Positions 6,202 through 8,800 of a stretch of 64,000 bases of DNA are shown one piece after another. The stretch's first letter is position 1. Each line of letters opens with the position of its first letter. A program made the position numbers. This stretch comes from Octopus vulgaris (Eukaryota). The stretch spans positions 1,736,001 through 1,800,000 of the forward strand of contig OX597817.1 of assembly GCA_951406725.2 (NCBI GenBank). Reading direction: 5' to 3'.

Positions 6202-8800
6202 CTGTGGAGATAGTAAGAAAAAGAGAGAGAGATTCATCCACACTCACACACACGCACGCACATACATATATATATATATATATGGTATGTATGTGTGTGT
6301 GTGCGTGTGTGTGTGTACATATTATATGCCTATGCATATGTATCTGAGTGTGTACAGAATGGGTACAATTTACATGATAACGGCAGGCGAACGTTCATTC
6401 GTCGCTCTCTAAGTTCGTAAGTTCGTTCTCTTCTGGATTTGTACTTCAGAACTTCAAAATAACAAAGATTAATCAGCAAGTGCCGCTTGTAGTGAAGGGA
6501 AGTTATTTTCAAAGATGCCGGCTATCGGCAGGCACATGACAAGACGGTCATGCCAGGATAGTTCTTCAAGATCACATTTTGATCTTCGTCAAGATATAGC
6601 AATGTGATAGATGACACAGAATCCGGGACACAACACGGCGCTGGTACGTGCGGGTATATTCCGATAGCGTGAACGATACTTTGTATAGTGGCATGGTTTG
6701 AGGCTCTCAGCTTCTGTAAAGAGAAAAAAAAATGGAAATGAGAAATGAGAATTGACTAATTATTCGATCAATGTTTATGGGAAATCAAACCGGCGAGCTG
6801 GCAGAAACGTTAGCACACCGGGCGAAATGCTTTGCGGTATTTCGTCTGTCTTTACGTTCTGAGTTCAAATTCCGTCGAGGTCGGCTTTGCCTTTCATCCT
6901 TTCGGGGTCGACAAGTTGTGTACTGGGGTCGATCTAATCGACTGGCCCCCTGCCCCCAAAATTTCAGGCCTTGTGCCTAGAGTGGAAAAGAATCGTTAGC
7001 ATGCCGGTCAAAATGATTTGCGACATTTCGTCCGTCTTCATGTTCTGAGTTCAAATTCCGCCGAGATCGATTTTGTTTTTCATTCTTTGTTTTTCATTCT
7101 TTGTTTTTCATTCTAAGCACTGGGGTCGATATAGAAAACTTACCACTTCTTCCCAAATTTCTAGCCTTGTGCCAAAATTTTAAATTAATATTTATGCAAT
7201 ATTATTATTATTATTAATTACTGTTTTAGTATTTTAAACACAAGGCTACGGATTTCGAGTGGAAGAATCATTATTCATTTGATGAATCACGATCCTTGAC
7301 TTCGAGTTCCCTTACTTCAGCAACCTTTTTAATGATGAAATACAAAATTCGACCTTGCAACTGGATCTGACCTAAAGATATAAAGACAAGTCACTGAATA
7401 TCGCAATACATTTAGTCCGGCATATTTGGCATGCAGATAACATTTATAGAAATCTACCTAACAAGGAAATTTATATCAACCAGATAACATCTGTGGATAT
7501 CATCTTACATTTATAACATATTTATGTCTTACCATGTAGATAAACATACATGTGCTTTATATTATAAGAATACGATGTAGTTTCTACGTATTCTGTTCAT
7601 AACATAGTAAATACTCCACATAGATATCATTGAAACATTTATCGTAGCATACGATAAATAATATTATTTCGAATGAACTGTTGGCTACATGGCGATTATG
7701 CGTGATCAAATGTGACTTTCCTATTCGTAAGACTGCAGTGTGTGATGTGAGAGTTATTTGACTGCTATTTCTAGCAGGTTGAGCGATTACGTGGAAGCTC
7801 CCTTGTGTCTCAAGTGTACCCTACTTGCCTCTTCAGATATTCAGATATTCAGTTATTTCAATGACACCTCAAAATAGATAACAACGAAGACAATGATGAT
7901 GATGATGATGATGATGATGATGTGGAAGTAGATGTGCTGACAGTGGTGGTGGAGGTGGTGCTGGTGGTGGTGGTGGTGATGGTGGTGATGGTGGTGGTGA
8001 TGGTGGTGGTGGTTGTTATCACCGTGTTATGTTTGGTAGATGTTACTTTCACGAGTGAGGGAGTAAGTGCGTCTGGAGGTGGGAGTGTGTACATATGAAT
8101 GTGGGTGCGGTGGGGGCAAAGTGTACTGAGTACAAAAGTTTCCCTTAAATGTTAAACTATACCACATTCATTCTCTACCTTCTCCCTTCTCTATTTCCTT
8201 CTCTGCTTTTCCTTTTACTTTCACTTTATCAAATACTCTCGCTTTCTCCCTCTCTCTCCCTCCCTCACTCTTCCTTTCTCTCTATATGTGTATCTATCTA
8301 CTGATTGTTCTGGTTCTCGTTCTGCCTTTTGAAAAGCAGATTCCAATGTTCTCAAATTCTGAAGAATCACAGCTGCAGCTTCAATGCTGATGTAGAAAGC
8401 CGACCTCAAACGGCGAAATATCTAAGTCGACCAGAATGATGATCGAATTCACAACACGAGGCCGATGAAATTACTCTTGCTTTCACCGACAACTACACGC
8501 ACGAGTGTACACACCCACCCGCCATACAGACACCTCACATAAAATGACACACATGTATATCCGCATTATCATGAGCCCAAGGTGTTTAGAATTTTATCTA
8601 ACCTTTTCCACCGCCTCTAACGCACGTAGACAAATACACCCCACCTCCGATACATGCGCGGTGCGACATTCATACATACATACATACATACACACACACA
8701 TATTCACACATACATACATGCATACATACATACATACATATAGATACATGCATACAAACATACATACATACATACATACATACATACATACATACATACA

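What the first reader, a model, noticed from the sequence alone, without database searches (positions are those of the whole stretch)
6522..6713. Hidden BMP3/GDF10-type ligand exon missed by the ORF track
Seen: a clean acceptor, 63 open codons and TAG, with the CC and CxC cysteines of the cystine knot, including the interchain Cys. Established: NHATIQSIV and a terminal CACR are characteristic of BMP3/GDF10 rather than BMP2/4 or BMP5-8 (NHAIVQTLV, CGCR/H); vertebrate BMP3 is an atypical, antagonistic ligand, and the subfamily is little studied in molluscs. This is the only host gene sequence I found in 64 kb.
Basis: partly seen in the sequence, partly recalled or inferred. Interest (0 to 1): 0.75.

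Follow-up and report, generated by a model that had tools for sequence, protein, structure and literature searches.

The report
Last exon of octopod BMP3 gene
This is the real, intact last coding exon of an octopus-type BMP3/GDF10 growth-factor gene, separated from the rest of the gene by a very long repeat-filled intron; it is an ordinary orthologue of a gene already known in molluscs.

Summary
On the minus strand, 6713..6525 gives 63 open codons followed by TAG (6524..6522). Upstream lie a pyrimidine tract (18 of 20 bases) and a CAG acceptor.

The peptide is the C-terminal half of a TGF-beta domain (Pfam 58.4 bits, cut-off 27). Its best solved relative is BMP3 at 88 bits, against 63.6 for the next. 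It is 95% identical to an Argonauta hians protein. The 33 best database hits are BMP3/GDF10-type wherever a family name is given, with one 'decapentaplegic-like' exception.

It groups with BMP3-class sequences in 498 of 500 bootstraps on 53 named sequences. Support is only 96-101 of 200 on broader sets. The intron position is shared with relatives.

The preceding exon is not in the window, so the last intron is at least 57,287 bp, or about 46 kb if an 11-kb duplicate at the N gap is an assembly artefact.

BMP3 is already described in bivalves, and squid and octopus transcriptomes list it. This is a known gene, of low novelty. ADMP, Nodal and Maverick comparators were not tested directly, and expression was not testable.

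The parts
6525..6713 (-). Coding part of the terminal exon: 63 codons for the C-terminal half of the mature BMP3/GDF10-type ligand. It holds the wrist helix [13 protein letters not shown], the CC pair (interchain Cys plus a knot Cys), finger 2 and the C-x-C knot cysteines.
6522..6524 (-). TAG stop directly after the terminal ...CACR. This is the same C-terminal end as 41 of 44 BMP3-class relatives.
6714..6735 (-). 3' splice site: pyrimidine tract (18 of 20) and CAG acceptor, phase 0. CAGAAG is a possible tandem acceptor.
   Evidence: Ten relatives translated from unspliced DNA end their intron read-through with ...Q at this same position.
6714..64000 (-). The part of the last intron held by the window (at least 57,287 bp). 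It is filled with interspersed repeats, microsatellites, a DDE transposase fragment, two copies of a LINE-like piece and a 100-N gap. No exon 2 is present.
   Evidence: tblastn of 11 relatives: only 6716..6525 matches; all other hits E>=0.95. Also.
5489..6521 (-). Presumed 3' untranslated region, inferred only. It runs up to the first canonical AATAAA on this strand (5494..5489, 1,028 nt after the stop) and crosses a (TA)n/(CA)n microsatellite.
   Evidence: No transcript evidence.

Best explanation
The stretch is the intact terminal coding exon (exon 3 of a three-part layout) of the BMP3/GDF10 orthologue of an octopod cephalopod, transcribed from the minus strand.

Shown: it encodes the last 63 residues of the mature ligand. 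These include four of the seven cystine-knot-domain cysteines: the one that forms the interchain disulfide, and three knot cysteines. The exon is spliced in phase 0 to an upstream exon that ends ...CPFPLA(K/E). That exon lies outside the window, more than 57 kb away, or more than about 46 kb if the 11-kb duplicate is an artefact.

Inferred from family knowledge: the pro-protein is cleaved at the basic site seen in relatives. The mature half dimerises through the first Cys of the CC pair and is secreted as a ligand for type II activin/BMP receptors. By analogy with vertebrate BMP3 it may dampen BMP/activin signalling instead of activating it. That analogy is not tested in any cephalopod.
For: Sequence and splice site.

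Family: Pfam PF00019 at 58.4 bits (cut-off 27), covering profile positions 46-104 of 104.

Subfamily:
- BMP3 2qcq_A scores 88 bits against 63.6 for the next of 43 PDB sequences.
- The peptide is 95% identical to Argonauta hians P0001, 71-87% to other lophotrochozoan and Daphnia BMP3-class proteins, and 66-68% to fish BMP3/GDF10. The best BMP2/5-8-type hits reach 53-61%.
- Motif counts are given.
- NJ gives 498 of 500 bootstraps on 53 sequences.
- In 200 of 200 bootstrap replicates, none of the 20 nearest sequences is of BMP5-8/dpp type.
- Of 20 more distant representatives looked up by name, 5 are BMP3/GDF10, 2 dpp, 1 dorsalin-like, and none is ADMP, Nodal or Maverick.

Gene structure:
- Of 45 BMP3-class proteins, 14 lose homology exactly at this boundary, 10 of them with a read-through ...Q.
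- P0137 and P0138 are exon-2 reading frames that run on past ...CPFPLA(E/K) into 'VS', which is what a GTnAGy donor translates to.

Not a retrocopy: homology stops at the shared intron site, and exon 2 is absent from the window.

Vertebrate BMP3 antagonises osteogenesis through ActRIIB (passage in PMC10837209).
Against: - No transcript data, so use of the acceptor and expression are unproven.
- The upstream exons were not seen. They could lie in the 100-N gap (31048-31147), which I did not and may not fill.
- No protein in the 5.8-billion-cluster database is 100% identical. The exon therefore belongs to no deposited gene model found there.
- Only 63 alignment columns are available. Strict monophyly of a broad BMP3 class gets 96 of 200 bootstraps, and the core-versus-BMP5-8/dpp split gets 101 of 200.
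- The protein-atlas look-alike search named a 'Squint (Fragment)' cluster first (score 0.94). That is a Nodal-type name, though the tool gives neither alignment nor subfamily resolution.
- The receptor-contact residues discussed for vertebrate BMP3 lie, as I recall, in the N-terminal half, which this exon does not encode. The antagonist mechanism is therefore analogy only.
Confidence: 0.9

Rival explanations
1. A stranded or decaying exon: a relic of a BMP3 gene, or a duplicated last exon, that is no longer spliced into any mRNA.
For: Exon 2 is absent from 57 kb upstream. No identical protein model exists in the database. The surroundings are all repeats and transposon debris.
Against: The frame is fully open and ends at the family's normal C-terminus. 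60 of 63 residues match Argonauta. All four cysteines are kept, and the splice acceptor is strong. Short last-exon-only BMP3 records from other molluscs (Bulinus 92 aa, Elysia marginata 77 aa) show that the gene is commonly split in annotation, which would fit long introns. Only one copy of the exon is in the window.
Confidence: 0.06
2. The exon belongs to another TGF-beta clade (BMP2/4, BMP5-8, ADMP, Nodal, Maverick) and only resembles BMP3.
For: The atlas's first named cluster is 'Squint (Fragment)'. One close hit is labelled 'decapentaplegic-like' (Daphnia sinensis P0028). Broad-set bootstraps are only about 50%. ADMP, Nodal and Maverick were never in the tree.
Against: BMP3 leads the PDB ranking by 24 bits. 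There are 11 BMP3/GDF10 names among the top 33 hits. The motifs NHATIQ and CACR discriminate. NJ gives 498 of 500 against BMP2/4, BMP5-8 and univin-like sequences. None of the 150 best representatives that could be named is ADMP, Nodal or Maverick (0 of 20 looked up).
Confidence: 0.03
3. A chance open frame next to a chance AG.
For: None beyond the fact that 63-codon open frames do occur in 64 kb (242 stop-to-stop frames of at least 70 aa).
Against: E-values of 1e-15 to 1e-31 in three independent libraries.
Confidence: 0

Closest known systems
Argonauta hians hypothetical protein Ahia01_000950900 (P0001, 895 aa)
   Same: 60 of 63 residues are identical over the exon, with the same C-terminus CACR and the same ...PLAK|KLRAS junction region.
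   Different: Different species: 3 substitutions in 63 residues. The Argonauta model carries a long N/H/Q-rich low-complexity N-terminal part whose reality I did not test.
Molluscan BMP3 / BMP3-like proteins (Pinctada fucata BMP3, Mytilus BMP3/3B, Haliotis, Saccostrea, Mya, Mactra, Pomacea, Bulinus, Elysia)
   Same: 71-83% identity over the exon, with NHATIQ, CC and CACR conserved. The intron sits at the same place in relatives translated from unspliced DNA.
   Different: Their whole proteins are 463-565 aa, whereas the cephalopod-type ones are 640-895 aa. Nothing is known here about the octopod prodomain.
Vertebrate BMP3 and GDF10 (BMP3b); solved structure 2qcq
   Same: Best solved relative, aligned end to end over residues 49-110 of the mature chain. 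66-68% identity to fish BMP3/GDF10. A review states that vertebrate BMP3 antagonises osteogenesis by binding ActRIIB (passage).
   Different: One gene here against two vertebrate paralogues. The antagonist behaviour is not shown for any protostome in what I read. In a brachiopod, bmp3 is expressed dorsally with bmp2/4 (passages in PMC13121700).
Cephalopod-like BMP3 sequences P0002 and P0003 (unnamed source)
   Same: 87% identical over the exon. They cluster with the query and Argonauta in 394 of 500 bootstraps.
   Different: They carry Ser in place of the first Cys of the CC pair, the interchain cysteine. The window's exon and Argonauta keep Cys.

Membership tests
TGF-beta superfamily ligand | Match to the TGF_beta domain profile above the curated cut-off | tested here: met
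   PF00019 at 58.4 bits against a cut-off of 27, covering profile positions 46-104 of 104.
TGF-beta superfamily ligand | Seven-cysteine pattern (six knot cysteines plus one interchain) | tested here: inconclusive
   The four C-terminal cysteines (CC and C-x-C) are present and aligned. The three N-terminal ones belong to exon 2, which is not in the window.
TGF-beta superfamily ligand | Signal peptide, prodomain and basic cleavage site upstream of the mature domain | not testable with these tools
   These are encoded by exons outside the window. They are present in relatives P0001-P0003, P0005 and P0013.
BMP3/GDF10 subfamily | Closer to BMP3/GDF10 than to any other subfamily in sequence searches | tested here: met
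   PDB: 88 bits for BMP3 against 63.6 for the next. Database: the top 33 hits are BMP3-class and then there is a 12-bit drop. Representatives: a 98-member cluster with NHATIQ/CACR holds the query.
BMP3/GDF10 subfamily | Groups with BMP3/GDF10 in a tree | tested here: met
   498 of 500 NJ bootstraps on 53 named sequences and 63 columns. Only 96 of 200 and 101 of 200 on broader sets. ADMP, Nodal and Maverick were not included.
BMP3/GDF10 subfamily | Subfamily motifs NHATIQ in the helix and C-terminal CACR | tested here: met
   Both are present. NHATIQ occurs in 42 of 44 BMP3-class proteins against 2 of 92 others, and CACR in 41 of 44 against 2 of 92.
BMP3/GDF10 subfamily | Intron inside the mature domain at the position shared by relatives | tested here: met
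   10 relatives read through a CAG acceptor at the same residue. 2 relatives read through the matching donor. The vertebrate gene structure was not checked.
BMP3/GDF10 subfamily | Binds a type II receptor without productive type I signalling (antagonist behaviour) | not testable with these tools
   Known for vertebrate BMP3 (review passage). There are no data for cephalopods.
Expressed gene | Spliced transcripts that use the 6714/6715 acceptor | not testable with these tools
   No read or transcript collection for this organism was available.

The most novel reading that the evidence does not exclude
Cephalopod BMP3 may differ between lineages in how the ligand dimerises. The octopod exon here and Argonauta keep the interchain cysteine. 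Two closely related cephalopod-like BMP3 clusters, P0002 (13 member sequences) and P0003 (4), have serine there, as in the few TGF-beta ligands I recall as acting as non-covalent dimers (GDF9, BMP15, GDF3, Lefty). Together with a terminal intron of more than 46-57 kb that hides the last exon from gene models, the cephalopod BMP3 inventory may be both incomplete and functionally split.
Probability: 0.25. Interest if true: 0.35.

Novelty: already known. Interest (0 to 1): 0.15.

Why it matters
The value is mainly for annotation. The exon completes a BMP3/GDF10 gene model in an octopod genome, where I found no deposited protein containing it. It also shows why such models break: the last intron is tens of kilobases of repeats. 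In addition, it documents that the intron inside the mature domain sits at the same residue across BMP3-class relatives, most of them molluscan or unnamed. BMP3 is of developmental interest in spiralians: in a brachiopod it lies dorsally, opposite admp. A correct cephalopod sequence is therefore useful for expression studies. It opens no new question by itself.

Tried and rejected
- Search for exon 2 in the window. tblastn with 11 relatives (P0001, 2, 3, 5, 8, 9, 12, 13; P0137-P0139) found only 6716..6525. All other hits had E>=0.95.
- Search for a deposited protein of this species. The 'longer' and 'near' length classes gave no 100% match.
- The third protein search, on the upstream part of P0001 (residues 320-832), gave exon-2 read-through proteins P0137 and P0138 but no named octopod model.
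- Bacterial-type promoter/terminator scan of 5000-8000. It is irrelevant to a eukaryotic gene: 14 promoter-like sites against 22.7 expected.
- Rfam on the whole window and a tRNA scan each gave 0 hits. The roughly 200-bp repeat next to the exon could therefore not be shown to be tRNA-derived.
- The protein atlas gave only family-level look-alikes.
- The first tree script timed out. It was rewritten with numpy.
- Supplementary data of PMC13121700, which would say which two mollusc assemblies 'lack bmp3', were closed. That point stays unchecked.
- No structure prediction was run. Half a domain alone would add nothing.
- A spliced model was searched exon by exon only. The joined step, exon 2 of a relative plus this exon, was left out.
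- 52 of the 242 stop-to-stop ORFs of at least 70 aa were dropped as low-complexity before the Pfam scans.

Full report
**1. The observation**

The minus strand of 6522..6713 reads as 63 sense codons followed by TAG. The peptide runs [18 protein letters not shown]...PAPCCVPD...LSCACR.

The sequence just upstream on that strand is a pyrimidine tract, with 18 of the 20 bases before the AG being pyrimidines. It ends in CAG, with the AG at 6715..6714. Only one other AG lies in the preceding 60 nt, and a branch-like heptamer sits at -55.

The reading frame is closed by stops 14 and 18 codons upstream of the acceptor, so the homology-bearing part begins at the splice site. The mechanical ORF list shows only a 31-aa GTG-started fragment, 6522..6617. 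That explains why an ORF track would not flag the exon.

**2. What it is**

- **Family.** Pfam places the peptide in the TGF_beta domain at 58.4 bits (cut-off 27), covering profile positions 46-104 of 104, the C-terminal half.
- **Solved structures.** Among solved structures, 43 distinct sequences match at E<=0.01. BMP3 (2qcq_A) leads with 88 bits and an end-to-end alignment to residues 49-110. The next is a BMP2/BMP6 chimera at 63.6 bits, followed by BMP2, BMP6, BMP7, GDF5 and others.
- **Large protein database, longer length class.** 173 of 179 candidates pass E<=0.001, and 120 are listed.
  - The best is an Argonauta hians hypothetical protein (P0001, 895 aa, 95% identity), so the window is from an octopod or a close relative.
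  - Of the first 33 hits, 11 are named BMP3, BMP3-like, BMP3/3B or GDF10-like. These come from Haliotis, two Saccostrea species, Mytilus, Pinctada, Pomacea, Mya, Mactra and three fishes.
  - One is named 'decapentaplegic-like' (Daphnia sinensis), 9 carry uninformative names and 12 carry none.
  - After rank 33 the score drops from 86 to 74 bits and the names become BMP2-, BMP5- and BMP7-like.
- **Near length class.** This adds 11 short BMP3-class proteins of 100 bits or more. Two are named BMP3 (Bulinus truncatus, Elysia marginata).
- **Own species.** No protein in either class is 100% identical.

**3.

Across the 136 proteins then held:

| Motif | BMP3-class | Others |
|---|---|---|
| NHATIQ | 42 of 44 | 2 of 92 |
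| Terminal CACR | 41 of 44 | 2 of 92 |

The other proteins are mostly NHATVQ (86) with CGCH (87). One of the two exceptions is a tardigrade protein named GDF10-like (P0092).

**4. Trees**

- **Named set.** A neighbour-joining tree was built on the 63 query columns. It held the query, 22 named proteins and 2 unnamed ones (P0002, P0003) of the BMP3 class, and 28 proteins of BMP2/4, BMP5-8 or univin-like type or with uninformative names. The query plus the 24 BMP3-class sequences are separated from the rest in 498 of 500 bootstraps. Query plus Argonauta is recovered in 388 of 500, and query plus P0001-P0003 in 394 of 500.
- **Wider search.** An exhaustive search of 1.84 billion cluster representatives found 1,061 proteins at E<=0.001 and 211 at E<=1e-10.
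- **Clustering.** Average-linkage clustering of 268 sequences puts the query in a 98-member NHATIQ/CACR cluster. That cluster is distinct from a 121-member NHATVQ/CGCH cluster (BMP5-8 type), an 8-member dpp cluster and small outlying groups.
- **Naming the outliers.** I looked up names for 20 outlying representatives.
  - 5 are BMP3/GDF10-named (a sea urchin, a starfish, two spiders and a bryozoan).
  - 2 are named 'bone morphogenetic protein' without a number.
  - 2 are dpp, 1 is dorsalin-1-like, and 1 is a generic Ciona ligand.
  - 7 carry uninformative names and 2 are unnamed.
  - None is ADMP, Nodal or Maverick.
- **Broader sets.** On these sets the deep split is weak. Strict monophyly of 87 BMP3-class against 101 other sequences gets 96 of 200 bootstraps. 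The split of 38 core BMP3 sequences against the BMP5-8/dpp types gets 101 of 200, with or without five odd sequences set aside.
- **Query-centred check.** In 200 of 200 replicates, none of the query's 20 nearest sequences is of BMP5-8/dpp type.
- **Contrary lead.** The atlas look-alike search named a 'Squint (Fragment)' cluster first, at score 0.94. That tool gives no alignment and resolves the family only, so I treat it as no evidence on the subfamily, but it is recorded.

ADMP, Nodal and Maverick sequences were never in a tree, because no tool fetches proteins by name.

**5. Gene structure**

tblastn of 8 relatives and of 3 more against the window finds only 6716..6525. Every other hit has E>=0.95. 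The exon and the 192 nt after it are unique in the window.

The upstream part of the Argonauta protein (residues 320-832) retrieved two proteins, P0137 (505 aa) and P0138 (578 aa). Each starts and ends in non-homologous sequence and holds exactly the middle block GEVNG...CPFPLA(E/K). After that they read 'VS', which is what a GTnAGy donor gives when translated. They are therefore exon-2 reading frames from unspliced DNA, and they mark the donor side of the same intron.

On the acceptor side, 31 of 45 BMP3-class proteins run continuously through the site. The other 14 lose homology exactly there. Of those 14:
- 10 have ...Q just before the site, preceded mostly by F, L, S or V codons, which is a translated pyrimidine tract plus CAG.
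- 2 simply start there.
- 2 have other upstream sequence.

The window shows the same pattern...[11 protein letters not shown]. The intron is thus in phase 0 and shared with these relatives. Scallop BMP3/GDF10-like genes are reported among those with '2 or 3 exons' (passage in PMC10763453).

**6. Intron size and contents**

From 6714 to the window end is 57,287 bp without exon 2. The one place not examined is the 100-N gap at 31048-31147, which was left as it is.

The two sides of that gap are an 11.0-kb direct duplicate, 20054-31047 and 31148-42136, at 98.8% identity. If that is an uncollapsed haplotype, the intron held here is about 46 kb.

A Pfam scan covered 190 stop-to-stop ORFs of at least 70 aa. 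These were 190 of 242; 52 low-complexity frames were dropped. Only two matches exceed their curated cut-offs: TGF_beta for this exon, and DDE_3 for a transposase fragment at 16180-16656.

**7. How it most likely works**

Shown:
- The exon supplies the wrist helix, the CC pair, finger 2 and the C-x-C end of a BMP3-class ligand.
- The four cysteines align with those of BMP3.

Inferred from general knowledge of the family (recalled):
- The first Cys of the CC pair makes the interchain disulfide.
- The other three join the cystine knot with the three cysteines of exon 2.
- The pro-protein is cleaved at the basic stretch seen in relatives, and the dimer is secreted.

[quoted passage not shown] Whether the octopod ligand behaves so is unknown. 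In the brachiopod Lingula, bmp3 is expressed dorsally with bmp2/4 and opposite admp (passages, PMC13121700).

**8. What is known already**

- BMP3 is listed or studied in Pinctada fucata and Hyriopsis cumingii (passages, PMC11373570).
- Scallops have a BMP3/GDF10-like cluster, separate from their ADMP and NODAL clusters, and it is expressed from gastrula to veliger (passages, PMC10763453).
- BMP3 is expressed in the embryonic eye of the pygmy squid but not in Nautilus (passages, PMC3594755).
- An Octopus vulgaris transcriptome table lists a BMP3 hit (table passage, PMC3538665).
- Searches for 'BMP3' with 'cephalopod' and with 'octopus' returned 7 and 5 papers. None of those listed (6 and 5) is a dedicated study, judging by title and abstract start.
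- PMC13121700 says two mollusc assemblies lack bmp3. Which ones they are sits in supplementary data that were closed.

**9. Verdict**

This is a real, intact, ordinary terminal exon of the octopod BMP3/GDF10 orthologue.

The mildly interesting residue is threefold:
- the very long repeat-filled last intron that hides the exon from gene models;
- the shared intron position;
- the serine-for-cysteine change at the interchain position in two related cephalopod-like sequences.

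Noticed in passing
window 20054-31047 and 31148-42136, with the N run at 31048-31147: An 11.0-kb direct duplicate at 98.8% identity whose two copies abut the 100-N gap exactly. This is either a true tandem duplication or an uncollapsed haplotype at a scaffold join. If it is an artefact, the intron is about 11 kb shorter.
   Followed up: partly
window about 22413-24568 (+) and its copy about 33441-35651 (+): This is probably the virus-like stretch the operators mention: a degraded non-LTR (LINE-like) retroelement piece. Its Pfam matches to an endonuclease (Exo_endo_phos_2, 26 bits) and a reverse transcriptase (RVT_1, 25 and 21 bits) all fall below their cut-offs. 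One frame matches LINE-1 ORF2 protein chains weakly (about 32 bits, E about 4e-7 to 1e-6). In each copy the endonuclease and reverse-transcriptase matches lie in separate open frames, and the reverse-transcriptase match is spread over two frames, so there is at least one frameshift per copy. It is described only.
   Followed up: partly
window 16180-16656 (-); related DNA at 16082-16783 and 44117-44837: A DDE_3 (Tc1/mariner-type) transposase fragment at 36 bits against a cut-off of 28.6. A second copy of the surrounding DNA is 83% identical.
   Followed up: no
window 6791-6991, 6989-7233, 9294-9491, 13362-13570, 21416-21623, 32517-32724, 55466-55672 and others: An interspersed repeat of about 200 bp (72-82% identity between copies) begins 78 nt upstream of the splice acceptor. 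It gives 15 non-self matches elsewhere in the window. It looks SINE-like, but no tRNA or Rfam match supports that.
   Followed up: partly
proteins P0002 and P0003 (unnamed source), position of the CC pair: These two cephalopod-like BMP3 clusters (13 and 4 member sequences) have Ser where the window's exon, Argonauta and 43 of 45 BMP3-class proteins have the first Cys of the CC pair, the interchain cysteine.
   Followed up: partly
window 5470-6340: A long (TA)n/(CA)n microsatellite block lies 180-1050 nt downstream of the stop codon, inside the presumed 3' UTR. It produces spurious long Y/I/C-rich ORFs on both strands. The first AATAAA on the gene's strand is 1,028 nt after the stop.
   Followed up: no
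window 6711-6716 (-): The acceptor reads CAGAAG, a NAGNAG-type tandem acceptor. It could give isoforms that differ by one lysine. Homology favours the upstream AG.
   Followed up: no
protein P0001 (Argonauta hians), residues about 30-300: The deposited model has a very long Asn/His/Gln-rich and Ser-rich low-complexity N-terminal region that is absent from all five other aligned BMP3 proteins. It may be real or a gene-model artefact.
   Followed up: no
window 50001-52000: This stretch has the highest G+C in the window (0.455 against about 0.37) and a strong AT skew (0.234). Its ORFs have no Pfam match. It is unexplained.
   Followed up: no
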